A program made the position numbers and the translations under genes. The notes beneath the pieces were generated by a model. The model saw nothing but the letters and a program-made list of their open reading frames with translations. It did not search any database and had not been told where the DNA came from. Shown here in pieces: positions 45,395 to 64,000 of a stretch of 64,000 bases of DNA; positions within the stretch are counted from its first letter, which is position 1, and each line of letters starts with the position of its first letter. Source of the DNA: Candidatus Hydrogenedens sp. Lineage in GTDB: Bacteria > Hydrogenedentota > Hydrogenedentia > Hydrogenedentales > Hydrogenedentaceae. Location of the stretch: positions 1 through 64,000 of the forward strand of contig JBMFRC010000005.1 in NCBI GenBank assembly GCA_049968235.1, in the 5' to 3' direction.

Positions 45395-48300
45395 TTAGTT
45401 AGTATTTGCTCTTTTCCTTCTGAGGACGAAGAACATTCCTACACCCGTCATTGTGATGAACATCAAATCACCAAGGTAATTGGGCACGCCTTCTGTTGGC
45501 GAACAAGAGATGAACAGGAATCTGCGCTTTGGCTTGTAACCTTCACCAGTAAGGTCAACATACACCTCTTTCGCAGGGGAGACACCATCCGATACAACGA
45601 ATAGCACCTTACCGGCATATGTTCCAACTTTTTTCGGAGCAAATGCAACTTCAACATACTTTGTTTCGCCGGAAGGTATCTCTATGTTCGCGGTCTCGAA
45701 TGTTACTGCAAATACATTATTGGCTGTATCCTTGACATCTATTGCTACATTGACAGGAATCTTACCTTTGTTTGCAAGGACAATCTTCTGCTTGTATGTC
45801 TTTTCTATTAACTGCTTACCAAAGTCAACGACAAGTGGCGTTATGGATAGATTTCCAGTTACCACTATAGGAGCCTCTTTTACAACAACTTTTCTACTAA
45901 CTTGTGCCTTATTGCCTGATGGGTCTTGTGCAGAGTAAACAAGTTCGTATGTAGCAGGAACACTGGTATTTACTTTACCAGATACCTGAACATTAAGATC
46001 TCCTGCACAGGCATCCGTCGCAGTTGCACCCGGGTCGTTAAAGGCTTGTCCTACCTGAATTTCGATTGTGCTATTTCCATTCAGGGTTATTGTCGGTTTC
46101 TGAGTATCAACGATACGAATAACACGCGTCTTAGAATCGGAATTACCTGAAGCATCAAAGGCTGTATAGGTCAGCGTATATTCACCCGGTACATTCACAT
46201 TTACACTACCAACGGTTTGTACTTCTAAGTTTCCACTACATCCATCTGTAGCCGTTGCACCTGGGTCGTTAAATGTAGACTTACATTCTAATACTACTTC
46301 CGAACTACCCAGTAGTGTTACCACCGGTTTTGTAGTATCTACGACATTGACGGTCCGGGTTACAGGTGTTGCGGAATTTCCTGAAGCATCTGCTGCCGTG
46401 TATGTAATTGTATATGAACCAATTACATTTGTATCTACGGTACCTGTAACAGAAACAGTAACCTGCGTGTCACATGTATCGCTTGCTGTTGCACCCGGGT
46501 CAGTAAAGTTAGACTTGCATTCTACACTAATCGTGTTTTCACCTAATAAAGTGATAACTGGTTTTGTAGTATCTACAATCTTAACGGGCATGTCTTTTGA
46601 TGACTTATTGCCAGAATCGTCCTCTGCCACATAGCGGACTACATATCCTTTTCCTGCAGAAGATGTATCTATCGTATAGACTTGATACATTGTTAAAGCA
46701 TCATATATCGCCGCTGCAGTTAGAACTTGTGTAACGCTACCACAGGAATCAATGGCGGTTGCTCCCGGATCTGTAAACACATCATTGCACTCAATGGTCA
46801 TTTCCTCTTGGTTAAGTGTTATTACAGGTGATGTAGTATCTACAATCTTAACGGGCATGTCTTTTGATGACTTATTGCCAGAATCGTCCTCTGCCACATA
46901 GCGGACTACATATCCTTTTCCTGCAGAAGATGTATCTATCGTATAGACTTGATACATTGTTAAAGCATCATATATCGCCGCTGCAGTTAGAACTTGTGTA
47001 ACGCTACCACAGGAATCAATGGCGGTTGCTCCCGGATCTGTAAACACATCATTGCACTCAATGGTCATTTCCTCTTGGTTAAGTGTTATTACAGGTGATG
47101 TAGTATCAATTATGTTAACCAACATATCTGCTTCTGATCTATTTTCAGAATTATCTGTGGCTACATAGCGGACTTTATATGTTTTGCCTACTGCACTTGT
47201 ATCAATGGCTTCTACCTCTTTATCACCATAAATAGCATCGACTTCATATATTGTTGCTGCAGTTAAAACAAGAGGTATTCCACCTTCGCATTTATCTAAT
47301 GCTGTTGCACCGGGGTCTGTAAATATACCATTGCACTCAATAGTCATTTCCTCTTGATTTAATGTAATTTCAGGACCTTGTGTATCTACAACATGAATTG
47401 TTCTTGTTTTACTTGCGCTATTATTAGCATTATCAACGGCTGTATATGTAAGTGTGTAATCACCTACCTGATTATCATATACATATCCGCTAACAATAAC
47501 ATCTAAAATACCGGAACATACATCCTCCGCAGTTGCACCCGGATCTACGAAGTTCAATCCACATTCATGAGTAATCTCACTGGCACCATTTAAGGTTACG
47601 GTAGGAGCCTGCGTATCTACTACATTCACGGTACGTATTGCTTGTCCTATTTTTCCAGCACGGTCTGTTGCCGTGTAAGTAATCTGGTAACTGCCTACCT
47701 GATTTGTATTAACAATACCTGTCTTATTTACTGTCAAGTTACCATCGCAAGCATCCGTAGCCGTTGCACCCGGGTCAGTAAATACAGAACCACACTGTAC
47801 TGTAAGCGGGTTAGCACCAACTATAGTTACTGTAGGTGGCAGATTATCGCTCACATTAACGACACGAGTCCTTGTTGCTGTATTTCCATTTGCATCAGTC
47901 GCCGTATAGGTTATTGTATATTGACCTGGCTCATTTGCATTGACCACGGTTGCCGAATTATTTGTAACCGATACAGTGCCCTGGCATGTGTCACTTGCGG
48001 TTGCACCCGGGTCATAATATACACTATGACATTCAAGGGCATAAGGATTCGGTCCTATAAGCGTAATTACGGGAGGTGTCGTATCTACAACCTTAACGGT
48101 GCGTATTACAGGGTCTGCATTATTGCCTGAATCATCCGCAGCGGTATAGGTTAATGTATACTCGCCAACAGCGTTAGTATCCACAGTCCCTGATACATTC
48201 ACTCCTACATTGGTATCGCAACTATCCGTCGCAGTTGCACCCGGGTCATTAAATGTTGATTTACACTCCACCACTAATGGATTGTCTCCTAATAAGTTTA

Positions 48301-49909
48301 TTACCGGTTTCGTTGTATCTACTACATGAACTATTCTTTGGGCTGTTACTGTATTATTGGAACTGTCGGTAACAGAATAATCAACAGTGTAATCACCCGG
48401 TACTGCTGTATTTACATTATTTGTTACCTCAATTTGAGCGGTTAAATCACCATCCGGAATATCTGTCGCTGTTGCTCCAGCATCAACATATGTCGTACCG
48501 CATTCAACTGTTACCTCCGCCTCTCCTAATAATGTCAAAACTGGCGGTGTATCGTCTATTAACTCACTTACTGCAATATCACTCAATAACTCGCCACCAC
48601 TCAAACGATACTTCGCACGTCCTGTAATTGTCTGTGGTCCCGAAGAACTTTCACTGGCTTTCATACGATATGTAAACGATGCACCTTGCCCCGTTAAATT
48701 CGGAACAAAAATATATGCAAAGGATAAGGTGCCTGTCGCTCCATAATTCGGGACTATCGGCGGTGTCGGATTCTCACTTGCCAACGGTCCTTCATATGTC
48801 CAACCCGCAGGGATAAATTCTTCATATCCTAATGCGGTTACTGAACTCGTACATGGACTATCCGGATTAATACGAATATTTATTGTAACTTCAACAACTT
48901 CACCTGGAATATAGTAGTTCCTCGTAAAACTCCGACTAACCAATAAGCAAGGAACTGCACCATCCAATTGCGTTTCCACTTTGGGTGAAAGTATGGCATC
49001 GCCACAGGTGCGATATACAACCGCACTCGATTTTGTCTCAGAATCCTCAACGATCTCTCCTCCTATAACGGCAATCCCTGTATATGAAATCGGAACATTT
49101 ACAATATAAGTAAATTCCGCAGGAAATGAAGGAACTGTAGTATATGCGAATTCTAACAAACCTGTTTTTCCTATTGTAGGCTCAACCGGCAGACTGCCTC
49201 CCTGCAATCCCTGATATGTCCAGCCTGCAGGTAATGTGTCCTGGAAACCTAATGCAGTTATTGGCTGAGGACCTTCCTTCTCTATACGAATGGTTACATA
49301 AATATTCTGACCCGGAATATAAAAATTATTGTTTACACCCGATATCCCCGGACCGGATAATTCACGTGTAAAGGAAAGACTTGTCGGCTCTAATTGAATA
49401 ACATTTATCGTAGGAGCGCTCTCTAATTGAGGTCCACTTGTGCGATACAAAACCTTACCTTGAAGTTGCCCTGGCTCGCAAATAGTAGGAGGACAGGCAA
49501 TTCGGTAGGTAAAGGTTGCCGGGAATGATGGAACAAAGATGTATGCAAAATTCAGTGTTCCTGTTTGATTCGCATTTGGGACGATAGGGGGTGTAGGATT
49601 TTCACTGGCTAATGGACCTGAATATGAAAAGCCCGGCGGAATTTGCTCCTCATATCCTAAAGCGGTAATTGTCCCTTCGGAATTATCATAATTTATCGTA
49701 ACTTGAACAGATAACTCCGCAGTGCCATTGACAAAATAACCATTAGCATCCAGCCCCGTTATCTGTTTTGTTACTGTTACCAATCCCTGGGCACTCATCG
49801 TTACCACAAGGAATCCCACCATCAGTAAACATACAGAGATGGTTGTGCGTGTGCTTGTTAAACTTACAATAGAGTTTCCTGCTTTCATTTTTTTGCCTCC
49901 ACTGTTCAT
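45395..49909 (-). CDS. giant surface protein: N-terminal signal, 3 long beta-rich repeats, ~13 DUF5011-like Ig domains (...C.s.F.DPGATAtD...G.YtvtYtA.D.sGN...), C-terminal PEP-CTERM-like TM+RRKR tail
   Basis: Repeating ~85-90-aa units carrying DPGATATD. C-terminus SPTEGVPNYLGDLMFITMTGVGMFFVLRRKRANTN*. The likely start is MKAGN (~49888) with a GGAGG RBS. Confidence 0.7.
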   Translation of the reverse strand: MNSGGKKMKAGNSIVSLTSTRTTISVCLLMVGFLVVTMSAQGLVTVTKQITGLDANGYFVNGTAELSVQVTINYDNSEGTITALGYEEQIPPGFSYSGPLASENPTPPIVPNANQTGTLNFAYIFVPSFPATFTYRIACPPTICEPGQLQGKVLYRTSGPQLESAPTINVIQLEPTSLSFTRELSGPGISGVNNNFYIPGQNIYVTIRIEKEGPQPITALGFQDTLPAGWTYQGLQGGSLPVEPTIGKTGLLEFAYTTVPSFPAEFTYIVNVPISYTGIAVIGGEIVEDSETKSSAVVYRTCGDAILSPKVETQLDGAVPCLLVSRSFTRNYYIPGEVVEVTINIRINPDSPCTSSVTALGYEEFIPAGWTYEGPLASENPTPPIVPNYGATGTLSFAYIFVPNLTGQGASFTYRMKASESSSGPQTITGRAKYRLSGGELLSDIAVSELIDDTPPVLTLLGEAEVTVECGTTYVDAGATATDIPDGDLTAQIEVTNNVNTAVPGDYTVDYSVTDSSNNTVTAQRIVHVVDTTKPVINLLGDNPLVVECKSTFNDPGATATDSCDTNVGVNVSGTVDTNAVGEYTLTYTAADDSGNNADPVIRTVKVVDTTPPVITLIGPNPYALECHSVYYDPGATASDTCQGTVSVTNNSATVVNANEPGQYTITYTATDANGNTATRTRVVNVSDNLPPTVTIVGANPLTVQCGSVFTDPGATATDACDGNLTVNKTGIVNTNQVGSYQITYTATDRAGKIGQAIRTVNVVDTQAPTVTLNGASEITHECGLNFVDPGATAEDVCSGILDVIVSGYVYDNQVGDYTLTYTAVDNANNSASKTRTIHVVDTQGPEITLNQEEMTIECNGIFTDPGATALDKCEGGIPLVLTAATIYEVDAIYGDKEVEAIDTSAVGKTYKVRYVATDNSENRSEADMLVNIIDTTSPVITLNQEEMTIECNDVFTDPGATAIDSCGSVTQVLTAAAIYDALTMYQVYTIDTSSAGKGYVVRYVAEDDSGNKSSKDMPVKIVDTTSPVITLNQEEMTIECNDVFTDPGATAIDSCGSVTQVLTAAAIYDALTMYQVYTIDTSSAGKGYVVRYVAEDDSGNKSSKDMPVKIVDTTKPVITLLGENTISVECKSNFTDPGATASDTCDTQVTVSVTGTVDTNVIGSYTITYTAADASGNSATPVTRTVNVVDTTKPVVTLLGSSEVVLECKSTFNDPGATATDGCSGNLEVQTVGSVNVNVPGEYTLTYTAFDASGNSDSKTRVIRIVDTQKPTITLNGNSTIEIQVGQAFNDPGATATDACAGDLNVQVSGKVNTSVPATYELVYSAQDPSGNKAQVSRKVVVKEAPIVVTGNLSITPLVVDFGKQLIEKTYKQKIVLANKGKIPVNVAIDVKDTANNVFAVTFETANIEIPSGETKYVEVAFAPKKVGTYAGKVLFVVSDGVSPAKEVYVDLTGEGYKPKRRFLFISCSPTEGVPNYLGDLMFITMTGVGMFFVLRRKRANTN
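46566..47100 (-). repeat. perfect 2 x 267-bp tandem duplication inside the giant gene (duplicates one Ig-like domain, 89 aa)
   Basis: An identical segment is repeated: PVITLNQEEMTIECNDVFTDPGATAIDSCGSVTQVLTAAAIYDALTMYQVYTIDTSSAGKGYVVRYVAEDDSGNKSSKDMPVKIVDTT. The DNA unit starting ...gtagtatctacaatcttaacgggcatgtc... occurs at 46566 and again at 46833. Confidence 0.85.
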
Positions 49910-53988: not shown

Positions 53989-54420
53989 TTACGCCCCCTT
54001 ATTCATTCTCTCTAATCGCTCCGAAAGCACATGAATAATATTCATTAAAAAACGAACCGCAATCTTCGTATCCATCATAGTAGACAATTGATGCTCATCC
54101 ATCGTAAACACACGGACAGGCATAAGAGCGACCGCAGACGCTGTACGCGGGGTCCTATTCAAAACGGACATCTCACCAAATACATCCCCAACACCAACCA
54201 CTGCTATCTCTTTCGCCTTCTTATATAAGCCCACCTTGCCTGATAATACTACAAACAAAGCAGAACCTAATTGCCCTTCATAAAAAATTGTTTTCCCCTG
54301 CGGATAATCAAAAATCTTCCCCTGCTTTAGAAGACATGCAATTTCTTCAGGGGTTAGCCCTTTGAATAAAGATACCTTTTCTGCATATTGCTGATACTTT
54401 GCCAAATTCTCCATATTCAA
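53989..54420 (-). CDS. stand-alone cyclic-nucleotide-binding (cNMP/CAP-family) domain protein
   Basis: FYEGQLGSALFVVLSGKVGLYK...GDVFGEMSVLNRTPRTASAVA is a canonical cNMP-binding beta-roll (FGE..l, R.A.a). No HTH follows. Confidence 0.65.
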   Translation of the reverse strand: MNMENLAKYQQYAEKVSLFKGLTPEEIACLLKQGKIFDYPQGKTIFYEGQLGSALFVVLSGKVGLYKKAKEIAVVGVGDVFGEMSVLNRTPRTASAVALMPVRVFTMDEHQLSTMMDTKIAVRFLMNIIHVLSERLERMNKGA

Positions 54421-54529
54421 ACTCCAAAAATATTCTACTATAAAAATAACATAATTTTATACACATTTGTTTCCTATCGAGATTAACAAAAACCTTCTAT
54501 GGATTAACATCCATTATCCACAGATACAA

Positions 54530-54850
54530 TTTAATCATAATGGTATATAAGTTATATATGTTTTTACGAGATAAAATCCCAAGGAGAAATTAAAATACAA
54601 AAGTCTGTATCTCTACTTTTCCTATTTTATTTGCTGTTTTTCTGTCCGGTTTTCTATCTTTCGCTTACCTATGCATACTTCTCCTTTTGCCCCCTTAATT
54701 CCCCATACATCCCCTTCAAATTATAAGCAGTCAATAACAAGAAATGAGATACTCCTCTCTATATGCTCTTTCTTGTCCTCCGTGGTGAAAATTATCTCAT
54801 TGTTTTGCTGAAAGTCCTGCCAGCCGTGCGGTTTTTATAGACGCATCCTA
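54530..54850 (+). repeat. intergenic composite repeat, copy A (family of 3 in this window)
   Basis: Shares ...tatatatgttttta(c/t)gagataaaatcc(c/g)a.gagaaattaaaatacaa.agtct.tatctctactt..., ...ttatttgctgtttt(t)ctgtccg... and ...cttaattccccatacatcc.cttcaaattat... with copies B and C. Confidence 0.75.
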
Positions 54851-55403
54851 AATCCGCCTGCATGGCAAATGCATCTCTATGTAGGAGCGAATAATCATTT
54901 GCTCAAAAAACGGATATATGTTATTTGCATTTAACTATTAAAGGGAATAGAAGAATTAATGATGGCAACGAAATAAAATTTTTATTTCATACGGGCGAAA
55001 ATGCTTGTAATACATTAATGTAATTATTTTTGTAATGGTTACGATTTTCCGAAGTGAGGGAAGTTGAAAGAGTAGAAACCGATAAATATTAATACAACTT
55101 GTTGGTGTATTGGTTATGTTTACTACGGGGTTTTTGTATGAGACCAGATAAAAAGACTGCGGCGATTTTTGGGGACATGTTATAAGAGAAGTTGTAAGAT
55201 AAAATAAAATTAAAAGTTAAAATGCAGGAGAAATGAGAGATTTTATGGAAGATTTTGTATATTCGAGATGAGACAAATATAGAACGAACATACAGGTTTA
55301 CAGAGAATAAATTATGAGGGAAATAGGTGAAAAAATGTTTTGAAAAAGGAAAGCGTTTGAAGTAATATATGTATATAAATGAATATAATCAGGAGGAATT
55401 CTA

Positions 55404-55766
55404 ATGACACATACGACAAATCCTGAAGACAGAAGGAAGTATCCACGTAGTAAACATGGTCTGAAAATTCCTATTGAATCCAAAGGACCGGGAATACTCA
55501 ATCATGTAGATAATATTAGTGCCAATGGCGTTTTGTGCCATACGGTTCAGCCTATCCCGTTAATGACCCGGATGCAGATAGTAGTGGAACTCCCAAAACC
55601 TTTTAAACATCGAATTCTGGCAGAAGGAATTGTTGTCCGCTGTAATAAAGATGAACTGGGAGATGACCATTTTAAGGTGGGCATCGTTTTTACCCGCATC
55701 GATGAAAAAGACCAGGAAAAAATACGCGAATTTGTTGAACAGAGTCTCTCTAAAAAAGATGATTAG
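55404..55766 (+). CDS. PilZ-domain (c-di-GMP-binding) protein
   Basis: RRKYPRSKH (RxxxR) followed by DNISANGVLC (D.S.GG-like), which is the PilZ bipartite motif. RBS AGGAGGAA. Confidence 0.6.
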   Translation: MTHTTNPEDRRKYPRSKHGLKIPIESKGPGILNHVDNISANGVLCHTVQPIPLMTRMQIVVELPKPFKHRILAEGIVVRCNKDELGDDHFKVGIVFTRIDEKDQEKIREFVEQSLSKKDD

Positions 55767-55780
55767 ATAAGTATTTTAAT

Positions 55781-56590
55781 ATGATTAATGAAGTTGGTGC
55801 TATAAAAGAAAAACGCGGTAGAAAACAAAAGAAAATAGCTAATAGCCCTGAAAAAAAAATCCTCCTGTTCGGAAAAGATGTAAAAGAAATTCTACCTCTT
55901 TTTAAGAAATTTCCCCAATTAAAGATAGTCCAGGACGCCCCGGATTTTGTTTTAAGTTATGGAGGTGATGGCACATTACTTTCGGCTGAGTATGAATATC
56001 CTCACATACCCAAGATTCCTGTATTAAAAAGTTTGCGTGGGCATCGTTGCATCCATCATCCACCCGAAGAGGTATTGAGGAGATTAACAGAAGACAAACT
56101 CATACCGTATCGATATATGAAATTAATTTGCTCCCTTTATCCCGGAGGAACAACGAGTCCATCGCACCAATTTGAATCCTTAAATGAAGTAATGGTGGAA
56201 AAAGGGAAAATAAACACCGCTGTCCGATTTAAACTCTGGATTGATGGTATCTCTTATGAAGGGGATGATAAGGATATACTCGGTGATGGCTTTATGATAA
56301 GCACACCTTTTGGTAGCACAGCTTATTTTTCGAATGTTACGCGGGGTATTTTTTGGAATGGAATTGGTATCGCGTTTTTAGCAACCTCAGAAGCAGTAAC
56401 ACATATGATTTTATCAGAGGATAGTCTAGTTGAAGTAAAAATAACACGAGGACCTGCTATTCTCGCACATGATAATGCACCGGAATCCATACCGCTACAA
56501 GCGGGGGATATACTTGTTGTAAAAAAATCTCCAAAAGATGCCATTATCTATTCCTGCGGTGTAGTTCACAAATTATCCGAACCATTCTAA
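55781..56590 (+). CDS. nadK: NAD(+) kinase
   Basis: GGDGTLL motif (VLSYGGDGTLLSA), NE...E and DG...TPFGSTAYFSN motifs. It lies 14 bp downstream of the PilZ gene. Confidence 0.8.
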   Translation: MINEVGAIKEKRGRKQKKIANSPEKKILLFGKDVKEILPLFKKFPQLKIVQDAPDFVLSYGGDGTLLSAEYEYPHIPKIPVLKSLRGHRCIHHPPEEVLRRLTEDKLIPYRYMKLICSLYPGGTTSPSHQFESLNEVMVEKGKINTAVRFKLWIDGISYEGDDKDILGDGFMISTPFGSTAYFSNVTRGIFWNGIGIAFLATSEAVTHMILSEDSLVEVKITRGPAILAHDNAPESIPLQAGDILVVKKSPKDAIIYSCGVVHKLSEPF

Positions 56591-56890
56591 TTTAATATTC
56601 GAGACCTGTGAACAATTCGTGTAAGAGGTTAGGGTATAAATGGTATATATTTTTATGAGATAAAATTCCGATGAGAAATTAAAATACAAAAATCTGTATC
56701 TTTACTTTTACCCATTTTATTTCCTGTTTTCTGTCCGTTTTTTTTTCTTTTCACATGAAGCATTAACAAGAAAGGATAGATCCGCTCTCTGTGCCTCTCC
56801 GTGTCCTCCTTGCTGGAAAAAATATAATCACCACAGAGAACAAAGAGAAATCATCACTCACTACACAACAATGCATAAAATAGTAAGGAC
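56591..56890 (+). repeat. intergenic composite repeat, copy B
   Basis: Begins immediately after the nadK stop. Contains the conserved 5' module and the hairpin module ctctgtgcc.ctccgtgtcctc...aatataatca.ccacagagaaca.agagaaa. Confidence 0.75.
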
Positions 56891-57466
56891 AGAAGTTTTC
56901 GCTTTCCCCGGTTCGCCTTTATATACTCCTTTCTATATGCCCTCTGCTCAAATTTCTTTCCATGCTATCACCTCTTGCATCTGTCTCAAAAAAACATCTG
57001 CGACGGGTCGCTTTCTGATGGGGCAATTCGTAATCTATTAAACTTGTTTATTCTATCTTTTTACCAAACTGTGTTGACCTTTTTTCATTTTTAGTTTTTC
57101 CTTGCTTTGTTATTCAAGCCACAATACTTCTGCTATATTTATATCACTTCTTTCTCTTCTAAATTCATTTTTTCCTTCACTCCTTCTCGTATATAATTTA
57201 TATCCTCTAACTTTTATGACTTATTTATAGGTTTTATCCATTATTTTGAAGATTTTTTTCAGGGGCAATATCCTTTATTTAAAGTTTAATTGGAATAGTA
57301 ATATTCGTAAGTAATTGATATATATTACAATTATTAGGATTATGATATTTTAATAATGAAAAATTCCAAATATAAATGCAAATTTTTGTTATATATATTA
57401 TAATAATATTAATAAATAATTATTTATGTTATAAAATATAATAATAATTATGTAAGGGAGATAATT

Positions 57467-57946
57467 ATGTTGTATCGTAAAGAAACAAAAGATACATATC
57501 ATGTGATGTGTTCTTGTGGACAAACATATCCTATTGTTAATCCGGACCTAATCGCTCAGTTAACCTGTGGTGTTTGTGGGAAGATTATAAAAGTTAGTCA
57601 AGATAATTTGATCGAGCCTAATGAAAGCAATACAGCCATCTATCGTAGATTAAAAAACAGTCCGCCCATAGAACGAATAATAGAAGGAATTCGCCTTATT
57701 AAAGAGGGAAAATGGGAACATGCTTTTCCTTTATTCCAGTCTGTGGTAAATGAAAACAGACCAGTCCGCGAAGCCTTTTATGGCTTGGGATATTGTTATT
57801 ATAAAGAAAAAGACTATCTGAATAGTCTTATTTTTCTTGGAGTTGCGTTATATTTGGGGCATCCTCATGCCCAAACCCTGTATGAAAAAGTCAAACAAAT
57901 ATTAAAGATTGATGGGAGCATTATACCGCCGAAGTTGGGAGAATAA
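57467..57946 (+). CDS. hypothetical protein with an N-terminal Zn-ribbon (CSCG...CGVCG) and a TPR-like C-terminus
   Basis: Four Cys in a CxC...CxxC arrangement. YGLGYCYYKEKDYLNSL is a TPR-like helix. Extremely AT-rich upstream region. Confidence 0.45.
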   Translation: MLYRKETKDTYHVMCSCGQTYPIVNPDLIAQLTCGVCGKIIKVSQDNLIEPNESNTAIYRRLKNSPPIERIIEGIRLIKEGKWEHAFPLFQSVVNENRPVREAFYGLGYCYYKEKDYLNSLIFLGVALYLGHPHAQTLYEKVKQILKIDGSIIPPKLGE

Positions 57947-58164
57947 TTTGGCTTTGTATTCTTAAAATACGCTCCAATACTAACCTATTCTTTTTAGAAG
58001 TCATGTACTTGAAATATGTCTATTCTTTATAATTAAACTATTATAATATTTGGAATAACTTTGTTTTACTATTTATACGATAGACAGGATGTTACTAAAA
58101 TTATATTAGCCAAAATAGATTATTATTAACTTTATTGAAATATAATTAACAGAAGGAGATTATC

Positions 58165-58947
58165 ATGAGTTATAACTATCTACTTACAGAGAAAGTGAAT
58201 GCGAGTTTCTGGGTTACTCTGAACCGTCCCAAGGCGAATGCTCTTTCTCGCGAATTACTTATAGAGATTTACAACGCCATTGAGGAAGCAGAGAAAGACC
58301 CGAATGTGAGGGCTGTTATAATTACAGGAGGTGATGGGAAATTTTTTGCGGCAGGTGCAGATATTCCGACCATAGCAGAGGACCTTGATGACCCTATGGG
58401 CGAAGGGAAGATGCTTTCACAGGGGATAAAAACGATGAATCGCATAGAAGCATGCACAAAACCCGTGATTGCTGGGGTCAATGGTTTTGCTTTAGGTGGT
58501 GGTTGTGAACTGGCACTTGCCTGTCATATTCGAATTGCTTCTGCAATGGCGACATTTGGTCAACCTGAAATTAACTTAGGGATTATTCCCGGTTGGGGAG
58601 GAACATTTCGTCTCCCTCGTGTTGTTGGTGAAGGTCTCGCTATGGATTTGATATTAACAGGTAGAAGTATATCCGCAGAGGAAGCCTTACGGTATGGTCT
58701 GGTCAGTAAGGTTGTTCCTCATGAAGAACTGAGAAAAACGGCACAGGAATTGGCAGACCTGCTTACGAGCAAACCACCTGTGGCACTTCGTGAACTTATT
58801 TTATTGCAAAAAAAGCGAATAACAGAGCCTGCTCATGCTCCGGATTATGAAAAATCTGCATTTGAGCAATGTGCAAAAACAGCAGATGCTCGGGAAGGTG
58901 TAGAAGCATTTTTAAATAAACGTACGCCTCAATTTAAGGGCATATAA
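58165..58947 (+). CDS. enoyl-CoA hydratase/isomerase (crotonase) family
   Basis: Oxyanion-hole and catalytic motifs GGDGKFFAAGADI, NGFALGGGCELALACH and PE...G. Length 260 aa. RBS GAAGGAG. Confidence 0.8.
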   Translation: MSYNYLLTEKVNASFWVTLNRPKANALSRELLIEIYNAIEEAEKDPNVRAVIITGGDGKFFAAGADIPTIAEDLDDPMGEGKMLSQGIKTMNRIEACTKPVIAGVNGFALGGGCELALACHIRIASAMATFGQPEINLGIIPGWGGTFRLPRVVGEGLAMDLILTGRSISAEEALRYGLVSKVVPHEELRKTAQELADLLTSKPPVALRELILLQKKRITEPAHAPDYEKSAFEQCAKTADAREGVEAFLNKRTPQFKGI

Positions 58948-59138
58948 ACAGTACTTAAATCCAGGAACTTTTATAGCGTGTGAAGTATCCTCATGAAAAG
59001 TAAGAATGTTTACTCATTCAACACACTATTTTTTGTTCATTGGTAGATATATTACCATGTAAAATCAGTTGTTTTGACTGGTTTCGTCGTTCAGGATTGA
59101 GGTGCATATAGGGACCATATTACGGATGTTCTCTATAT

Positions 59139-60482
59139 ATGGTAATATATAGGTGTATATTAGAGAATGAATTTATGCTGATAGTAGATATAGTAAAATC
59201 GTTGAACAAAATGTTGGGTTTATTTAACCCACAATTAGCCCCGCATCTGGCACAGGTTACATATTTAAGTAAGAAAATAGGTGAACATCTGGGCTTGTCT
59301 CCACAGGCAATGCAGGACTTAGTAATAGCCTCGTCTATTCATGATATTGGTTTACTGTCTTTATCTCAGAAAGAAAGTTATTTGCTTTTAGAAGAGAGTT
59401 TCCCTGCGACGCATTCATTAACAGTCTTTTTATTGTTTAATAATATCCCATTTTTTCATCAGCCATCTAAGATCGTTAAATATCATCATGCTAATTATGA
59501 TAGGCGGGGCATCCATTCTTTTCAAAATAACTTTGATGATGGTTCAATTCCATTAGAAAGTTATATCATTAGATTGGCAGATCGATTGGCGGTTCATATA
59601 AATCCGTTGCAACCGATTCTCGAGCAGGTAGAGGATGTTTATCGATACATCGAGGTAAGCAAGGATCTTTACCATCCTGAAGTATTAGATGTATTTAATT
59701 CTGTTATTAAGAAGCAGGACTATCTATGGCTTGAATTAGTAACCATTCCCCCCGATTTGATGTTGGAAAAAATTTTATTAGAGAGTATGAGCCGGGTGCC
59801 GGAAAAAAATATATTTTCAGAAATAGCAGAAATAATCGGGTATTTAATTGATTTTAAAAGTCAATTTACAGCAAGTCATAGTTATTGTGTTGCGGAAATA
59901 TCTTCGTGGTTATTTCATTCCGGTAAGTTCCCCGTGGAAGAGCCGTGTGATATTATTCGAGAGGCAGGTTTCCTGCATGATATAGGGAAATTGGCTATAC
60001 CTATAGAGATACTTGAGAAACCGGGGCAACTCAATTCAAAAGAGTGGAATATTATGCGAGCCCATGTGTATTACAGTCATATTGCATTAGAGACTATGTA
60101 TAAGGAATATCCGTGTTTGAGGTATACGCCATATCATCATGAAAAATTAGATGGTTCGGGTTATCCATTCGGCTTAAAGGGAGAAGATATTCCTGTTATT
60201 GCTCGAATTATTGCTGTATCCGATGTATTTACTGCAATTACAGAGAACAGACCATACCGTGGCGAATTAACCGAAAGTGAAGTTGTAAAAATCATGAAGC
60301 CTATGGCAGTTTCAAAGAAGTTAGATGAAGATATAGTAAATTATGTCCTTGCCCATTTTAAAGAAGCAAAAGAACGGCGTGATGAGGCGGAATCTTTAGC
60401 CCGGCATGTTTATAACGGGTTTAGAGAAGATATTAGAAAGTATTACGAAAATGAACTAAAGAGTAAAAGAATAAGTGTATAA
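59139..60482 (+). CDS. tandem HD-GYP-domain protein (c-di-GMP phosphodiesterase family); the N-terminal copy looks degenerate
   Basis: C-terminal copy HSYCVAE...FLHDIGKLAIP...YHHEKLDGSGYPFGL (HD ... HHExxDGSGYP). N-terminal copy AQVTYLSKKIGE...SIHDIGLL...KYHHANYDRRG. Confidence 0.7.
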   Translation: MVIYRCILENEFMLIVDIVKSLNKMLGLFNPQLAPHLAQVTYLSKKIGEHLGLSPQAMQDLVIASSIHDIGLLSLSQKESYLLLEESFPATHSLTVFLLFNNIPFFHQPSKIVKYHHANYDRRGIHSFQNNFDDGSIPLESYIIRLADRLAVHINPLQPILEQVEDVYRYIEVSKDLYHPEVLDVFNSVIKKQDYLWLELVTIPPDLMLEKILLESMSRVPEKNIFSEIAEIIGYLIDFKSQFTASHSYCVAEISSWLFHSGKFPVEEPCDIIREAGFLHDIGKLAIPIEILEKPGQLNSKEWNIMRAHVYYSHIALETMYKEYPCLRYTPYHHEKLDGSGYPFGLKGEDIPVIARIIAVSDVFTAITENRPYRGELTESEVVKIMKPMAVSKKLDEDIVNYVLAHFKEAKERRDEAESLARHVYNGFREDIRKYYENELKSKRISV

Positions 60483-60507
60483 ATTGATTGTTCCGTAACA
60501 AAGATAT

Positions 60508-61089
60508 CTATTCGTGAGTATAAATAACCGCTAATATACAAGCCTTTTCTTCATTGGCTGAACGAACTTCATGTGGCGTGGTAGAATCGTAATAAATACT
60601 ATCCCCGGGAGATAAAATGAATATATCCGAACCATACGACACCTGTATTTTCCCGGAGAGAACGTAAATAAACTCTTCCCCTTCATGTACAGAGAACATA
60701 CAATCCTCAGATACGGTAGGATGAATATCAATTAAGAAAGGTTCCATATGTCTACCTGCTTTGTTACAGGCTAAAGGATGAAACTCGAGAGTGCTGGTGT
60801 CCGAAGCAACACGGATACCGGAAAAACGAACAATTGGGCTTTCTTTATCTCCCTTACGAGTAATTACAGGACCAGCATGAGTTTTTTCATCCAATAGGGT
60901 ACCTAAATGAACACCCAATCCACGGGCTATCTGGAGAAGCGGGGCTAAAGAAGGAGATAGATGTCCTTCTTCCAGTGCTTCAATGATTTCTGGTTTGCAA
61001 TGACTCCGTTGGGCTAACTCTTCACGAGAAATCCCTTTCTTCTCACGAAGTCGTGCTATATGTTGCCCCAAACTGCTTGAAAGTGCCAT
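60508..61089 (-). CDS. XRE-family HTH transcriptional regulator with a C-terminal cupin domain
   Basis: N-terminal HTH_3 (IARLREKKGISREELAQRS). The C-terminal cupin carries H..E...H-like residues (FSVHEGEEFIYVLSG ... TPHEV). Confidence 0.7.
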   Translation of the reverse strand: MALSSSLGQHIARLREKKGISREELAQRSHCKPEIIEALEEGHLSPSLAPLLQIARGLGVHLGTLLDEKTHAGPVITRKGDKESPIVRFSGIRVASDTSTLEFHPLACNKAGRHMEPFLIDIHPTVSEDCMFSVHEGEEFIYVLSGKIQVSYGSDIFILSPGDSIYYDSTTPHEVRSANEEKACILAVIYTHE

Positions 61090-61170
61090 AATGATTTCTC
61101 CTGTTCAGTTTAAAAATCCAGAAGTGTTTGTATCTATCATATCATAAGATTATGATTTATTAATATCCCT

Positions 61171-61977
61171 ATGATAACCAAAAACAAAATTCTGAAAATA
61201 CGAAACATTTTTGACAGGGTATATACCCGGTATCATCACAAACAATTTGCCTTGAACGACCCGGTACACTGGATTTATTCTTATCCTAACAATGAGGACA
61301 AGGAAATAATTGGACTTATCTCGGCACTTTTTGCTTTTGGGAATGCGAAATCATTTAATAGCAAGATAAAAAAAATTATCTCCTTATGGCATTCCCCGTC
61401 AAAAGAACTATTGAATTGGTCTTATAGTGATTTTCAATTGTCTCTTGCAGGGTTCCAACATAGATTTGTAAGTGGTGGAACTGTCGCTAATTTTTTATAT
61501 GGGCTCCGCCGAATTCGGGAAGAGTATGGAACGATAGGCTTTTGTATGTTACAGCATTATAAACAATCCTCGGGAAATTTATGGCATACATTACAAAGCA
61601 TTACAGATGAATTGCGTAAATTAGCGGAGTGTCCACTACATTTTTTAGTTCCTATGCCGAATAATGGGGGTGCCTGTAAACGGCTCTGGCTTTACCTTCG
61701 CTGGATGGTGCGAAGGGATGAAATTGATGTCGGTTGTTGGGATTTTATAAGACCCTCTCAATTAATTATTCCTTTAGATACTCACATATACCAATGGGCT
61801 ATATCCCTTCGTCTTATTTCTCCGCGTTCTCTAAATGCAAAAACCGCAATGTTATTAACGGAAATATTTCGTCAGATATGCCCTGAGGACCCTTTGCGGT
61901 ATGATTTTTCCCTTTGTCAGGCGGGTATGTTGGGAATGCGAGATAAAATCTTATATGATGAAAGGAAAGGAAAGTAA
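61171..61977 (+). CDS. hypothetical protein (DUF2400/TIGR02757-like)
   Basis: 268 aa. The N-terminal ...DPVHWIY.....EDKEIIGLISALFAFGN... resembles TIGR02757. It is adjacent to a nucleotide-sugar dehydrogenase. Low confidence. Confidence 0.4.
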   Translation: MITKNKILKIRNIFDRVYTRYHHKQFALNDPVHWIYSYPNNEDKEIIGLISALFAFGNAKSFNSKIKKIISLWHSPSKELLNWSYSDFQLSLAGFQHRFVSGGTVANFLYGLRRIREEYGTIGFCMLQHYKQSSGNLWHTLQSITDELRKLAECPLHFLVPMPNNGGACKRLWLYLRWMVRRDEIDVGCWDFIRPSQLIIPLDTHIYQWAISLRLISPRSLNAKTAMLLTEIFRQICPEDPLRYDFSLCQAGMLGMRDKILYDERKGK

Positions 61978-61991
61978 TAACTATTAAGGAT

Positions 61992-63284
61992 ATGTTTATG
62001 GAAACAGGATTGATAAAGAAAGTAGGTGTGTTAGGTTTAGGATATGTAGGGCTTCCTCTTGCATTGGAATTTCACAGGAGCGGTTTGCAAGTATGGGGAA
62101 TTGATACGGACAGGGAAAGAATTCATCATCTGAAATCCGGCATATCCTATATTGATGATGTATCCTCCGAAGTTATTCAGCAAGCGATGAAGACAAATCG
62201 CTTCCTTGTAACGGATGAGTATGAAATACTCAGGGAAATAGAAGCAATTTGTATTTGTGTCCCTACCCCTTTGAATAAGATTCAAGAACCGGACCTGTCT
62301 TTTATTATACAGGCGGTTGATGCTATAGAACCTTATCTGCATCAGGGGATGCTGATTGTGCTCGAAAGTACCACCTATCCCGGAACCACAGAAGAAGTGG
62401 TATTGCCCCGTTTGTCGAAATCAGGCTTGTGTGCAGGGAAAGACTTCTTCCTTGCTTTTTCACCAGAACGCTATGACCCGGGGAATAAACAATTCAATAT
62501 ACGAAATACACCCAAGATTATAGGCGGGATTACACCTGCATGTACTCAGAAAGCGAAAGAACTCTATCAAAATATCATTGCTGAAATTGTGCCTGTATCC
62601 AATGCAAAAACAGCAGAAATGGTGAAGTTACTGGAAAATACTTTTCGTGCTGTCAACATCGCACTTGTCAACGAAATGGCAATGATGTGTGATGCATTAG
62701 GCATAGATATATGGGAGGTAATAGATTCCGCTCGCACTAAACCATTTGGTTTTATGCCTTTCTATCCGGGACCCGGATTGGGGGGACATTGCATCCCTGT
62801 TGACCCGGTATATCTTTCCTGGAAAATGAAGACATTGAATTATACTGCACGATTTATAGAATTGGCGCGAACGATTAATTCTTCTATGCCAAAATATGTA
62901 GTAGAGAAAATGGCAGATAGCTTAAACAAGCAGAAAAAAAGTATTCAGGGAAGTAAAATTTTAATTTTAGGTGTAACTTATAAAAAGGATATTTCAGACC
63001 TTCGAGAGTCTCCTGCATTGGATATTATTTCATTACTGACAAGAAAAGGGGCGGATGTATATTTCTCTGACCCGTATGTAAGCCAATTAGAAGTTGAGGA
63101 GAAACAGTTACAATCTTACCCAATAACCGAGGACCTATCCTTATTTGACCTCGTAGTTATAATTACTGACCACTCCATCTATAACTATGAAGATATCGTT
63201 AAAAAAGCACAGTTCGTTTTAGATACGCGTAATGCGACAAAAAATATTAGCCCATTCTTAAAAGAAAAGGTAATAAAACTATAA
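61992..63284 (+). CDS. UDP-glucose/GDP-mannose-family nucleotide-sugar dehydrogenase (WecC/TviB/Ugd-like)
   Basis: N-terminal Rossmann VGVLGLGYVGLPLALEF. Catalytic Cys region GGHCIPVDP. Length 430 aa. Confidence 0.8.
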   Translation: MFMETGLIKKVGVLGLGYVGLPLALEFHRSGLQVWGIDTDRERIHHLKSGISYIDDVSSEVIQQAMKTNRFLVTDEYEILREIEAICICVPTPLNKIQEPDLSFIIQAVDAIEPYLHQGMLIVLESTTYPGTTEEVVLPRLSKSGLCAGKDFFLAFSPERYDPGNKQFNIRNTPKIIGGITPACTQKAKELYQNIIAEIVPVSNAKTAEMVKLLENTFRAVNIALVNEMAMMCDALGIDIWEVIDSARTKPFGFMPFYPGPGLGGHCIPVDPVYLSWKMKTLNYTARFIELARTINSSMPKYVVEKMADSLNKQKKSIQGSKILILGVTYKKDISDLRESPALDIISLLTRKGADVYFSDPYVSQLEVEEKQLQSYPITEDLSLFDLVVIITDHSIYNYEDIVKKAQFVLDTRNATKNISPFLKEKVIKL

Positions 63285-63480
63285 ATAGCAATAACGCTCC
63301 TGTATGCCTCTTTAATTCTGGGGAAATTATCTTGTACAAAATTCATTATATAACCCCTGCCTAGTATTTATACTAAATATCCTTGTAGTCTTTTACAAAA
63401 AATCTCCGCATTCTCTCTGTGTTACTCTCCCGTTAAAAATTGTATTCTACTCATTTCTGTTCGTTTAATTCATGATTAAA

Positions 63481-63800
63481 AATATGAGAGACTTCTGAAC
63501 AATCAGTGTAAGAGGTAATGTTATAAATTATACATGTTTTTATGAGATAAAATCCCGATGAGAAATTAAAATACAAGAGTCTATATCTCTACTTCTATCC
63601 GTTTATATATCTTTTTGTATCGATGCATATTTGTCCTTTTGCTCCCTTAATTCCCCATACATCCACTTCAAATTATTGCGGACATTAACAAAAAATGATA
63701 TGCTCATCTTCTATGCATCTCTGTGCCCCTCCGTGTCCTCTGTGGTGAAAAGAATATAATCAACCACAGAGAACACAGAGAAACACGGAGAAAAAAGGAT
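63481..63800 (+). repeat. intergenic composite repeat, copy C
   Basis: Begins ~200 bp after the dehydrogenase stop. Carries all four modules, including the clear hairpin CTCTGTGGT-gaaaagaatataatcaa-CCACAGAG. Confidence 0.75.
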
Positions 63801-64000
63801 AAGAAAAATATAAATCAGGGAAAGATTATTAGCGTTTTATAGTTTAAGATTGGGAAAGTGTGATAAAATAAATAACAGAGGTTCGTTATTTCGTTTTATT
63901 AAATGGAGATATAAATATGAATAGTGGTGGACAAATAAAAAAAATCATTTATAGTTTAAGTATAGTATGTTTTTTATTTACCAATATATCCCTTCTTGCA

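What the first reader, a model, noticed from the sequence alone, without database searches (positions are those of the whole stretch)
54530..63800. Three same-orientation copies of a ~300-bp composite intergenic element that is neither a CRISPR nor a classic MITE: candidate novel ncRNA or regulatory repeat family
Copies sit at ~54530-54850 (A), 56591-56890 (B) and 63481-63800 (C) and are built from shared modules.
(1) A 5' module ...gtgtaagaggt.a..gtataaat..tata.atgttttta(t/c)gagataaaat(c/t)cc(g/a)a.gagaaattaaaatacaa.a.tct.tatct.tactt.
(2) A module ttatttgctgtttt(t)ctgtccg, present in A and B.
(3) A module ttttgc.cccttaattccccatacatcc.cttcaaattat, present in A and C and deleted in B.
(4) A 3' module cattaacaa.aaatga.a...ctc.tct.tatgc.tctctgtgcc.ctccgtgtcctc.gtggtgaaaa.aatataatca.ccacagagaaca.agagaaa. 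This contains an imperfect long inverted repeat (CTCTGTGGT...ACCACAGAG), so it could form a stable hairpin.
All three copies are in the same orientation and non-coding in every frame. Each lies 3' of a + strand gene, and B starts at the first base after the nadK stop. Copies A and B are each followed by a ~550-590 bp AT-rich spacer before the next + strand gene. I find no terminal inverted repeats or target-site duplications, which argues against a MITE. The modular indel pattern, with module 3 missing in B and module 2 missing in C, suggests a structured RNA or regulatory cassette evolving by module loss. Three copies in 9 kb implies many genome-wide.
Basis: seen in the sequence. Interest (0 to 1): 0.8.

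Follow-up and report, generated by a model that had tools for sequence, protein, structure and literature searches.

The report
Mosaic intergenic repeat with pan-bacterial hairpin arm
The three copies are real but look like decaying, species-specific "junk" intergenic repeats rather than an RNA gene, and one of their modules is a local copy of a hairpin-forming repeat whose sequence recurs almost unchanged in at least 13 bacterial phyla and in phages.

Summary
The three same-orientation non-coding copies (A 54546-54930, B 56591-56860, C 63481-63829) are real. There are no further copies in the other 54 kb. A fourth copy lies upstream of a SIS-domain operon in sister assemblies of the same Candidatus Hydrogenedens species.

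The ncRNA or regulatory-cassette reading is not supported:
- There is no Rfam match.
- The consensus fold is weak on both strands.
- The hairpin is intact only in C, degenerate in B and absent in A.
- Copy ends are ragged.

Sister species (90-92% protein identity) lack the element at the orthologous nadK and UGDH junctions. A and C sit at synteny breaks. Copies differ by deletions between repeated arms.

Module 4 is an arm of a palindrome built from three CTCYGTG heptads ending in GTGGTGAA. An exact 20-mer from it occurs in more than 120 contigs from at least 13 phyla and in 25 phage contigs. There it forms a TTCACCAC...GTGGTGAA palindrome around a variable core. These palindromes are extragenic and orientation-independent, with no target-site duplication and no linked transposase. 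They are absent from Rfam and from the papers I could search.

Best reading: a lineage-specific BIME/BOX-like mosaic repeat seeded by a pan-bacterial REP-like palindrome. The composite is ordinary. The cross-phylum palindrome is the interesting part.

The parts
54546..54628 (+). Copy A, module 1. It is 5'-truncated by about 40 nt relative to B and C, and 54505-54545 is only weakly similar.
   Evidence: (D5)
54629..54665 (+). Copy A, module 2 (T-rich; ...gctgtttttctgtccgg...).
54666..54724 (+). Copy A, module 3 (90% identical to C 63618-63676).
   Evidence: (D10)
54725..54757 (+). Copy A, linker (..aataacaagaaatgaga..), joined to the arm at the same junction in all copies.
54758..54795 (+). Copy A, decayed pyrimidine (P) heptad arm ending in gtcctccgtggtgaaaa. 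It has no partner arm and forms no hairpin.
54796..54930 (+). Copy A, 3' tail. It is shared only with the fourth copy (L001 1604-1747 at 79%; L165 1-136 at 77%).
56591..56717 (+). Copy B, module 1, starting at the first base after the nadK stop. The first 132 nt are identical to the fourth copy in L001. The first ~63 nt may be ancestral nadK 3' flank.
56718..56760 (+). Copy B, module 2. Module 3 is deleted.
56761..56785 (+). Copy B, linker (cattaacaagaaagg...).
56786..56819 (+). Copy B, P heptad arm (tctctgtgcctctccgtgtcctccttgctggaaa). The third heptad is mutated.
56828..56851 (+). Copy B, truncated purine (R) arm (tcaccacagagaacaaagagaaat).
63403..63436 (+). Degenerate extra P-like arm about 45 nt upstream of copy C (tctctctgtgttactctcccgttaa).
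   Evidence: read from the sequence
63481..63604 (+). Copy C, module 1 (83% identical to B). Module 2 is deleted.
   Evidence: (D5)
63618..63676 (+). Copy C, module 3.
   Evidence: (D10)
63677..63717 (+). Copy C, linker.
63718..63750 (+). Copy C, canonical P heptad arm (tctctgtgcccctccgtgtcctctgtggtgaaa). It contains the pan-bacterial 20-mer at 63730-63749.
63760..63795 (+). Copy C, AT-shifted R arm (tcaaccacagagaacacagagaaacacggagaaaaa). It pairs with the P arm, and the pairing is best on the minus strand through G-U pairs.
63796..63829 (+). Copy C, 3' extension shared with L001 (ggataagaaaaatataaatca).
56654..57272 (.). Block present in this species but absent between nadK and the TPR-like gene in the closest sister species. 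It holds most of copy B plus about 410 nt of unique, G-poor DNA.

Best explanation
A, B and C, plus a fourth copy upstream of a SIS-domain operon in sister assemblies, are differently truncated copies of a species-restricted, non-coding mosaic repeat. I read it as DNA-level selfish or neutral sequence, not an RNA gene.

Each copy has a species-specific part of about 230 bp (modules 1-3 plus a linker). This part is fused at a fixed junction to one arm of a heptad palindrome, three CTCYGTG units ending in GTGGTGAA. In some copies the complementary CACRGAG arm follows.

That palindrome is a local, AT-shifted member of a REP-like repeat found in many bacterial phyla and in phages.

Shown:
- The copies arose after the split from sister species.
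- They occupy long intergenic regions at or near synteny breaks.
- They differ from one another by deletions whose ends lie at repeated arms or modules.
- At least two copies share a perfectly identical 132-nt stretch that then diverges abruptly.

Inferred:
- The unit spreads and is reshuffled by recombination, gene conversion or template switching between its repeated arms, or by an enzyme acting in trans on the hairpin arms.
- Any effect on neighbouring genes, such as a hairpin at a transcript's 3' end, is a by-product.
For: - Repeat reality and module map.
- Lineage restriction: no module 1-3 homologue in about 180 kb from three sister species. Nothing was found in genome, metagenome or viral scans.
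- Empty orthologous sites: the nadK-to-TPR spacer is about 250 nt in the relatives against 876 nt here, with about 620 nt extra at 56654-57272. UGDH is followed after 85 nt by a convergent gene in the relative, against a 632-nt spacer holding C here.
- A sits at a synteny break. Only the last ~95 nt upstream of PilZ are conserved.
- Module content differs in every copy. A equals the L001 arrangement with the segment between two P arms deleted.
- A fourth copy exists, and short-read contigs break exactly at the arm. B and L001 share a 132-nt identical run and then diverge.
- No conserved structure. No Rfam match.
- No transposase, integrase, reverse transcriptase or Cas gene in the window.
- The arm belongs to a wide family with REP-like gene context: tandem ++ 22, tandem -- 20, convergent 19, divergent 7.
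- The same design, a heptad arm fused to lineage-specific modules, recurs in a Synergistales chromosome, in Pyrinomonadaceae and in Bacteroides.
Against: - The copy number in the complete genome is unknown. Only 4 copies were seen, 3 of them within 9.3 kb, which would also fit local duplication.
- No mobilising enzyme, defined termini or insertion footprint was found, so 'mobile' is not demonstrated.
- All four copies have the same orientation as the next downstream gene (4 of 4). A cis-regulatory role would predict this.
- The 40-nt core of module 1 is nearly invariant in all four copies, which could reflect constraint rather than youth.
- L001 may be an assembly chimera, which would weaken the recombination argument.
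- No transcript data are available.
Confidence: 0.55

Rival explanations
1. It is a family of paralogous small RNAs or a structured ncRNA, most likely transcribed from the minus strand, which folds far better. Modules 1-3 would be the functional body and the long hairpin a 5' stabiliser.
For: - The minus strand of C folds at -97.2 kcal/mol (z -5.7) against -67.0 (z -2.2) for the plus strand.
- The hairpin alone gives z -9.9 on the minus strand.
- The module-1 core is nearly invariant in the four copies.
- A small minus-strand hairpin in module 1 is kept in all four copies, with G-U to A-U changes.
Against: - The hairpin is lost in A and degraded in B.
- The consensus fold energy is only -10.9 kcal/mol, with essentially no covariation.
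- No Rfam match.
- No shared promoter or terminator.
- Absent from sister species.
- Ragged 5' and 3' ends.
- Across the wider family the transcribed strand does not fold better than the other strand (10 vs 15).
Confidence: 0.12
2. It is a cis-regulatory cassette (promoter, operator or 5' leader) duplicated in front of several + strand transcription units: PilZ-nadK, the TPR-ECH-HD-GYP genes, an exported protein, and the SIS operon.
For: - In all four copies the next downstream gene is on the same strand as the element.
- A lies between divergent genes, which is a promoter-type position.
- Module 1 carries two direct GAGA(T/A)A..AAAAT repeats and a TGAACA-N20-TATAAA motif conserved in B, C and L001 (read).
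- Neighbouring genes are c-di-GMP or cNMP related.
Against: - Four of four same-orientation copies has a chance probability of about 0.125.
- The element lies 90-600 nt from the downstream start codons, at no fixed distance.
- The sigma-70 scan finds no shared site, and the motif spacing (20 nt) is off-consensus.
- The orthologous genes in sister species do without it.
- No riboswitch or leader match in Rfam.
Confidence: 0.13
3. It is the remnant of larger mobile DNA whose coding part has been lost. Candidates are the ends of an IS200/IS605-type element (a palindrome-associated element with subterminal hairpins and no inverted repeats or duplications) or a prophage or island scar. This would also explain the ~400 nt of unique DNA next to A and B.
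For: - There are no TIRs and no TSDs but there are hairpins, as in IS200/IS605 ends.
- Each of A, B and the fourth copy is followed by 320-410 nt of unique, strongly strand-skewed DNA that is absent from relatives.
- The heptad palindrome occurs in genuine phage genomes.
Against: - No Y1 transposase, TnpB or other transposase, and no phage gene, in the 64-kb window.
- The unique DNA stretches are unrelated to each other on either strand.
- Modules 1 and 3 are absent from 2.9 million viral contigs.
- Where RayT-like genes occur near heptad arms (L093, L015), they are flanked by other palindromes.
Confidence: 0.1
4. The hairpin part works as an RNA 3'-end element (terminator or mRNA stabiliser) for the upstream + strand genes nadK and UGDH, as proposed for REP and ERIC elements. 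The rest would be hitch-hiking sequence.
For: - B and C lie downstream of + strand genes.
- The wider family is enriched between tandem and convergent genes (42 + 19 against 7 divergent).
- Family members are flanked by an A-rich tract at -10..-8 and a T-rich tract at +8..+11, like bidirectional terminators.
Against: - In the window no T-tract follows the hairpin on either strand, and no terminator-like site is called.
- A has no upstream + strand gene and no hairpin.
- In C the antisense strand folds better than the sense strand.
- Pairing does not extend into the flanks of family members.
Confidence: 0.1

Closest known systems
BIMEs (bacterial interspersed mosaic elements) of E. coli and BOX elements of Streptococcus pneumoniae
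   Same: These are extragenic and non-coding. They are built from a small set of modules that combine differently in each copy. One module type is a hairpin-forming palindrome. They lack terminal inverted repeats and target-site duplications. Their function is debated.
   Different: The module sequences are unrelated. Only 4 copies are seen here, against hundreds for BIMEs and about 100 for BOX. The palindromic module here is made of three tandem heptads and is shared across phyla. No REP-type GTAG tag is present.
REP / REPIN elements and their RAYT transposases (Nunvar 2010; Bertels & Rainey 2011; Di Nocera 2013, PMC3733652)
   Same: For the heptad palindrome: it is extragenic, palindromic and independent of orientation. 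It is enriched between tandem and convergent genes. It occurs as singlets, inverted pairs and clusters, and it nests other repeats.
   Different: There is no GTAG or CGTC tag. The arms are about 30 nt, built from 3 x 7 nt units with a 9-nt period. The same sequence occurs in at least 13 phyla, whereas REP families are mostly specific to a species or genus. The two RayT-like genes seen in heptad-bearing loci are flanked by other palindromes.
Classic bacterial MITEs (Correia/NEMIS, RUP, ERIC, Nezha)
   Same: The size range is 70-350 bp. They are non-coding and intergenic, form strong hairpins, and can be co-transcribed. The heptad palindrome has TIR-like 30-nt arms around a variable core.
   Different: The composite element has no TIRs, and its ends differ between copies. 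The heptad palindrome shows no target-site duplication at any tested offset. No cognate IS was found.
Intrinsic (bidirectional) transcription terminators
   Same: Both are G+C-rich stems in gene 3' regions. Family members have A-rich upstream and T-rich downstream flanks.
   Different: Stems of about 30 bp with loops of 15-200 nt are far outside terminator dimensions. Terminators do not share sequence across phyla. The window copies have no U-tract.

Membership tests
CRISPR array | Regularly spaced short direct repeats separated by unique spacers of similar length, usually with cas genes nearby. | tested here: not met
   Three ~300-bp copies are spaced 2089 and 6887 nt apart, with genes between them. 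No Cas domains are present in the window.
Classic MITE | Terminal inverted repeats at both ends of a unit with fixed termini. | tested here: not met
   No inverted repeat joins the ends of A, B or C. The 5' and 3' ends differ between copies.
Classic MITE | Target-site duplication flanking the element. | tested here: not met
   None is visible at A, B or C. For 57 heptad palindromes from other genomes, direct repeats of 2-5 nt at offsets 0-5 occur at chance frequency.
REP / REPIN-RAYT system | Short extragenic palindrome present in many copies per genome. | tested here: inconclusive
   Extragenic: yes. Palindrome intact in 1 of 3 window copies. Genome-wide copy number is not obtainable here. 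Gemmatirosa replicons show 4 and 10 places per ~1 Mb.
REP / REPIN-RAYT system | Conserved GTAG (or CGTC) tetranucleotide at one end. | tested here: not met
   The ends are TTCACCAC / GTGGTGAA.
REP / REPIN-RAYT system | A RAYT (Y1/HUH transposase) gene flanked by the same repeats. | tested here: not met
The two hits in heptad-bearing loci (L093, L015) are flanked by different palindromes. Only 8-kb pieces of those genomes were available.
BIME / BOX-type mosaic repeat | Intergenic units assembled from a few sequence modules whose presence and order vary between copies, one module being a palindrome. | tested here: met
   Four copies carry four module combinations with a fixed linker-arm junction.
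BIME / BOX-type mosaic repeat | Tens to hundreds of copies dispersed over the chromosome. | not testable with these tools
   The source genome is not in the scannable collections. Only 4 copies were seen.
Known structured RNA family (Rfam 15) | Covariance-model score at or above the family's gathering threshold. | tested here: not met
   Only a tRNA elsewhere in the window passes. In relaxed searches the hairpin hits only generic miRNA-precursor models, far below threshold.
Structured ncRNA (general) | A secondary structure conserved across copies, with compensatory changes. | tested here: not met
   RNAalifold gives -7.9 / -10.9 kcal/mol, with 2-3 pairs showing double changes in 4 sequences. 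The hairpin is not conserved. Power is low with 4 copies.
Intrinsic terminator | Short G+C-rich stem-loop followed directly by a U-tract. | tested here: not met
   No terminator-like site lies in or next to A, B or C.
IS200/IS605-derived palindrome-associated element | Subterminal hairpins at both ends, and a TnpA/TnpB-encoding relative in the genome. | tested here: inconclusive
   A hairpin lies at one end only, and only in C. No Y1 transposase is present in the window. The rest of the genome was not available.

The most novel reading that the evidence does not exclude
The heptad palindrome (TTCACCAC-[CACRGAG]x3 ... [CTCYGTG]x3-GTGGTGAA) is an undescribed pan-bacterial, phage-carried repeat. 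Its ~30-nt arms stay nearly identical across at least 13 phyla, from 33% to over 65% G+C genomes. This would be because a widely shared factor, either a host nucleic-acid-binding or processing protein or a broadly transferred enzyme, recognises the 9-nt-periodic heptads. It repeatedly fuses with local sequence to seed lineage-specific mosaic repeats such as the Hydrogenedens element in this window.
Probability: 0.3. Interest if true: 0.75.

Novelty: new variant of a known kind. Interest (0 to 1): 0.5.

Why it matters
The Hydrogenedens composite matters little on its own. It is one more lineage-specific mosaic repeat that breaks short-read assemblies and marks rearrangement-prone spacers.

The value lies in its module 4. 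Extragenic palindromes are generally treated as species- or genus-specific families, each tied to its own RAYT. Here a roughly 30-nt arm recurs, exact over 20 nt, in Acidobacteriota, Planctomycetota, Verrucomicrobiota, Bacteroidota, Chloroflexota, Pseudomonadota, Myxococcota, Synergistota, Spirochaetota, Gemmatimonadota, Abditibacteriota, Auribacterota and Hydrogenedentota, and in phage structural operons. It has no tag, no duplication and no linked transposase.

If the family is really undescribed, it raises a concrete and testable question: what keeps a non-coding palindrome constant across phyla? Genetically tractable Bacteroides carry it, for example between gmd and the GDP-fucose synthase gene.

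It is also a practical warning. Such arms yield spurious small ORFs, miRNA-like covariance-model hits and misleading cross-phylum BLAST matches.

Tried and rejected
- Rfam at gathering and relaxed thresholds on the window and on Bacteroides and phage loci gave only a tRNA and generic miRNA-like hairpin hits.
- The genome contigs and metagenome scans with the module-1 core gave 0 hits and one chance hit in eukaryote-like DNA, L003. Viral scans with modules 1 and 3 gave 0.
- Small conserved ORF in module 3 (MHTSPFAPLIPH...). Among A, C and L001 the changes are mostly non-synonymous, the frames end at different points, and B lacks the module. Rejected (read).
- Autonomous element between distant arm pairs (1.8-3.9 kb). 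These enclose NRPS, metallo-beta-lactamase and AAA genes, not transposases.
- Gene families recurring next to heptad arms. Only ABC ATPases and histidine kinases recur in bacteria, and head-morphogenesis genes in phages.
- RAYT link. RayT-like genes in L093 and L015 carry other palindromes.
- Target-site duplication and stem extension into the flanks. Neither was found.
- Sense-strand folding bias as a sign of RNA-level selection. None.
- Arm-to-arm agreement at the variable A/G site is significant for units 1 and 3 (p = 2.5e-6 and 3e-4). It is confounded by genome-wide preference and by my search pattern, so I do not count it as covariation.
- Homology among the unique DNA stretches after A, B, C and the fourth copy. 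None on either strand.
- Seven literature searches by sequence strings and by descriptors found no description of the heptad palindrome. Di Nocera 2013 describes RAYT-like genes flanked by long TIRs in Acidobacteria, but the TIR sequences are in figures I could not read.
- E. coli genomes have no match.

Full report

Yes, with corrections. The repeat finder recovers three direct-repeat families linking 54505-54802, 56594-56830 and 63481-63762 (D5, D8, D10).

The module-1 core (33 nt, 3 degenerate positions) and the module-4 arm each occur exactly three times, all on the + strand. Dinucleotide shuffles give 0.00 expected. A sensitive blastn of all copies against the whole window finds nothing in the first 54 kb. 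No shared ORF exists.

- A's upstream neighbour (53989-54420) is a minus-strand cNMP-binding gene (Pfam E = 8e-19). A therefore lies between divergent genes, not 3' of a + strand gene.
- The inverted repeat is intact only in C. Its hairpin folds at -35.3 kcal/mol (z -6.5) on the + strand and -47.1 (z -9.9) on the - strand. B gives z -1.4 / -2.3. A has only one arm and gives z +1.3 / +0.2.
- The minus strand of the whole element folds much better than the plus strand (-97.2 vs -67.0 kcal/mol). One arm is a C-to-T shifted version of the other, which gives G-U pairs on that strand only.

**2. Organism and relatives**

nadK homologues are named Candidatus Hydrogenedens / Hydrogenedentes. Two NCBI assemblies (GCA_049969095.1, GCA_049971155.1) carry near-identical DNA in short contigs.

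Copy C is 100% identical in both assemblies. L002 reproduces B.

L001 (GCA_049971155.1) has nadK followed by a fuller element: modules 1-2-3, a short P arm, an R-loop-P hairpin (z -6.1), a second P arm, and a tail. Unrelated genes follow (SIS, inositol phosphatase, DUF386, epimerase).

In the other assembly the SIS contig (L165) starts exactly after that P arm and is 100% identical to L001 from there on. A fourth copy therefore exists upstream of the SIS operon.

B and L001 are identical for the first 132 nt of the element and then diverge (7 mismatches in the next 30 nt). L001 is therefore either a true recombinant between two copies or an assembly chimera through the repeat. I cannot tell which.

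**3. Comparison with sister species**

Three relatives (nadK 92%, 82% and 73% identical) keep PilZ-nadK-TPR-like-ECH synteny. Their nadK-to-TPR spacer is about 250 nt and lacks the element.

Against the closest relative, homology covers window 56410-56653 and 57273-57599. About 620 nt (56654-57272) are therefore extra in this species: most of B plus about 410 nt of unique G-poor DNA.

The first ~63 nt of B align with the relative's native nadK flank in the same register. The support is weak (z 2.3; 12 of 300 shuffles score as well). If this is real, part of 'module 1' is ancestral flank that was copied to the other sites. That would favour duplication over transposition of a fixed unit.

Upstream of PilZ only the last ~95 nt are conserved, so A sits at a synteny break.

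In the relative with 91% identical UGDH, the gene is followed after 85 nt by a convergent DUF4914 gene. Here a 632-nt spacer with C precedes a + strand gene.

No module 1-3 homologue occurs in about 180 kb of relatives' DNA. None occurs in one genome per GTDB species, in JGI metagenomes or in IMG/VR, apart from a single chance match in eukaryote-like metagenome DNA (L003). The element is thus young and species-restricted.

**4. Tests of the RNA and regulatory reading**

- Rfam finds nothing.
- RNAalifold on A, B, C and L001 gives -7.9 kcal/mol (+ strand) and -10.9 (- strand) over 359 columns. Only 2-3 pairs have double changes.
- The one strong structure is not conserved between copies.
- No sigma-70-like or terminator-like site is shared.
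- The window encodes no transposase, integrase, reverse transcriptase or Cas protein.

Two points remain in favour of a function. First, the 40-nt core of module 1 is almost invariant. Second, all four copies point the same way as the next gene (chance probability about 0.125). With four copies the power of every structural test is low.

**5. Module 4 is not specific to this genome**

BLAST of C against plasmid and phage records hit only the pyrimidine arm (63719-63766). The hits were at 87-97% identity in six Bacteroides records (five B. finegoldii, one B. ovatus) and in a gut phage contig.

There the arm is the 3' half of a palindrome: TTTCACCACAGAGGACACGGAGGACGCAGAGG - loop - CCTCTGTGTCCTCCGTGTCCTCTGTGGTGAAA. 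The same design occurs at several places in the two ~1-Mb replicons of Gemmatirosa, nested inside a CGCAGAG-type version.

The exact 20-mer TCCGTGTCCTCYGTGGTGAA (window 63730-63749) was scanned against one genome per species. About 2 would be expected by chance (my estimate from collection size).

By record title the hits come from:
- Acidobacteriota
- Planctomycetota
- Verrucomicrobiota (including Lentisphaerales and Tichowtungia)
- Bacteroidota
- Chloroflexota
- Alpha-, Beta-, Gamma- and Zetaproteobacteria
- Myxococcota / 'Deltaproteobacteria'
- Synergistota
- Spirochaetota
- Abditibacteriota
- Auribacterota

One Mycobacterium hit lies inside a long ORF and looks like chance.

Twenty-five IMG/VR contigs also carry the 20-mer. 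Several are genuine phages, and in L148 it sits between the large terminase and portal genes. E. coli has none.

**6. Anatomy of the wide family**

*Structure*
- About half of the hits (59 of 127) have the purine arm 38-240 nt upstream. The rest are solo arms. At least one solo arm is the deleted form of a full palindrome at a site with the same right flank: L094 against L102, two contigs of one MAG.
- Each arm is three CAC(A/G)GAG heptads with 2-3 nt spacers, a 9-nt period. The base is TTCACCAC / GTGGTGAA.
- The core is not conserved and often nests other palindromes.
- Pairing does not extend beyond TTC/GAA.
- There is no target-site duplication.
- Flanks are A-rich at -10..-8 and T-rich at +8..+11.

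*Context*
- With crude ORF calls the contexts are tandem ++ 22, tandem -- 20, convergent 19 and divergent 7.
- The transcribed strand does not fold better than the other strand (10 vs 15).

*Gene links*
- Distant arm pairs enclose ordinary genes.
- No gene family recurs beside the arms in bacteria, apart from ABC ATPases and histidine kinases.
- Two RayT-like genes in heptad-bearing loci are flanked by other palindromes.

*Variable site*
- The A/G site in each heptad is a CpG-to-TpG type difference. Its agreement between arms is confounded by genome preference and by my search pattern.

*Recurrence of the composite design*
- In a Synergistales chromosome piece (L096), heptad arms of two sequence types are fused to lineage-specific modules in many combinations within 8 kb.
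- Pyrinomonadaceae (L012 / L043) and Bacteroides (L005 / L006) also show conserved flanks around the palindrome.

The Hydrogenedens composite is therefore one instance of a recurring pattern.

**7. Interpretation**

The window element is best described as a BIME/BOX-like mosaic repeat. It is a species-specific ~230-bp part joined at a fixed point to an arm of the pan-bacterial palindrome, later reshaped by deletions between repeated arms. A equals the L001 arrangement minus the stretch between two P arms. B lacks module 3 and C lacks module 2.

It was gained after speciation and lies in unusually long spacers (983, 876 and 632 nt) at or near rearrangement points.

How it multiplies is not shown. 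I infer recombination, gene conversion or template switching at the arms, or an unidentified enzyme acting in trans. I give this reading 0.55.

The rivals are:
- cis-regulatory cassette, 0.13
- minus-strand RNA, 0.12
- remnant of a larger mobile element, 0.10
- RNA 3'-end element, 0.10

**8. Novelty and limits**

The composite is a new member of a known kind. The heptad palindrome resembles REP elements in context. It differs in architecture (tandem heptads, no GTAG/CGTC tag), in lacking a RAYT link where I could look, and above all in its sequence constancy across phyla and phages.

I found it neither in Rfam 15 nor in seven full-text searches. The library is incomplete, so it may have been described elsewhere. 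One possibility is the TIR families of Di Nocera 2013, whose sequences are in figures I could not read. I therefore rate the whole finding as a new variant of a known kind.

Main limits:
- The source genome could not be scanned.
- No transcript data are available.
- Gene calls in the fetched loci are crude.

Noticed in passing
loci L008 (540-760), L074, L025, L056, L114, L130 (16720-16815), L096: Beside CACRGAG there are sister palindrome families with the same design: three units of about 9 nt per arm, starting AACC/ACC. The heptads are different: CGCAGAG, CACGGGG, CGCGAAG/CGCCAAG and CACAAAG. They are sometimes nested inside one another.
   Followed up: partly
L148 855-5123; also L145, L147, L150-L152 (IMG/VR contigs): In one group of phages the heptad arm sits at a conserved place between the large terminase and portal genes. 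A second group (L140, L154, L155, L157, L160, L161) has it upstream of a conserved unknown gene next to the major head protein gene.
   Followed up: partly
L096 1-8000 (Synergistales chromosome OY762654.1): There are eleven heptad arms of two sequence types in 8 kb. They are fused in many combinations to lineage-specific modules such as TGGCACAAATCTACGATTTCGTGCC. This is a very dense mosaic-repeat field.
   Followed up: partly
L093 6640-7510; L015 200-810: RayT-like (Y1 transposase) genes in two acidobacterial MAGs are flanked by their own palindromes (GGGACGGACACTCCTGTCCGTC; GGCACGGCTTCAGCCGTGCC). These are classic REPtron layouts, unrelated to the heptad arms in the same loci.
   Followed up: partly
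window 54930-55309 and 56860-57272: Unique DNA next to copies A and B is absent from sister species and strongly strand-skewed (8% C in the first; 11% G and 43% T in the second). The two stretches are unrelated to each other. Origin unknown.
   Followed up: partly
window 29334-29978 (inside ORF 27660-30266, +): There is a 12-nt periodic GAAGGnnnnnnn repeat in two blocks, 21 registers in all. It encodes E-G-x-x tetrapeptide repeats in a protein with four PASTA domains and a GLUG motif.
   Followed up: no
window 45395-49909 (-): A 1504-aa surface protein carries eight or more Ig-like domains. Its DNA repeats are 228-279 nt, including a 98% identical 267-nt tandem pair (46551-47084), which suggests recent unit duplication.
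   Followed up: no
window 4-84 and 30149-30229: An 81-nt stretch is 77% identical between the end of the PASTA/GLUG gene and an ORF running off the window start. It looks like a shared coding motif in two proteins.
   Followed up: no
window 53989-54420 (-), 55404-55766 (+), 59139-60482 (+): The genes around the repeats are rich in second-messenger functions: a cNMP-binding protein, a PilZ protein and a double HD_5 (HD-GYP-type) protein. No c-di-GMP riboswitch was detected.
   Followed up: partly
L001 (GCA_049971155.1 contig JBMFLO010000278.1) 1154-1320: The contig joins nadK to the SIS operon through the repeat. It is identical to copy B for 132 nt and then switches. It may be an assembly chimera, which is a caution for anyone using this MAG.
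   Followed up: partly
window 11063-11136 (-): The only Rfam hit in the window is a tRNA (70.2 bits). The 3' end of the mechanically listed ORF 10067-11125 overlaps it, so that ORF's true end or the gene call needs checking.
   Followed up: no
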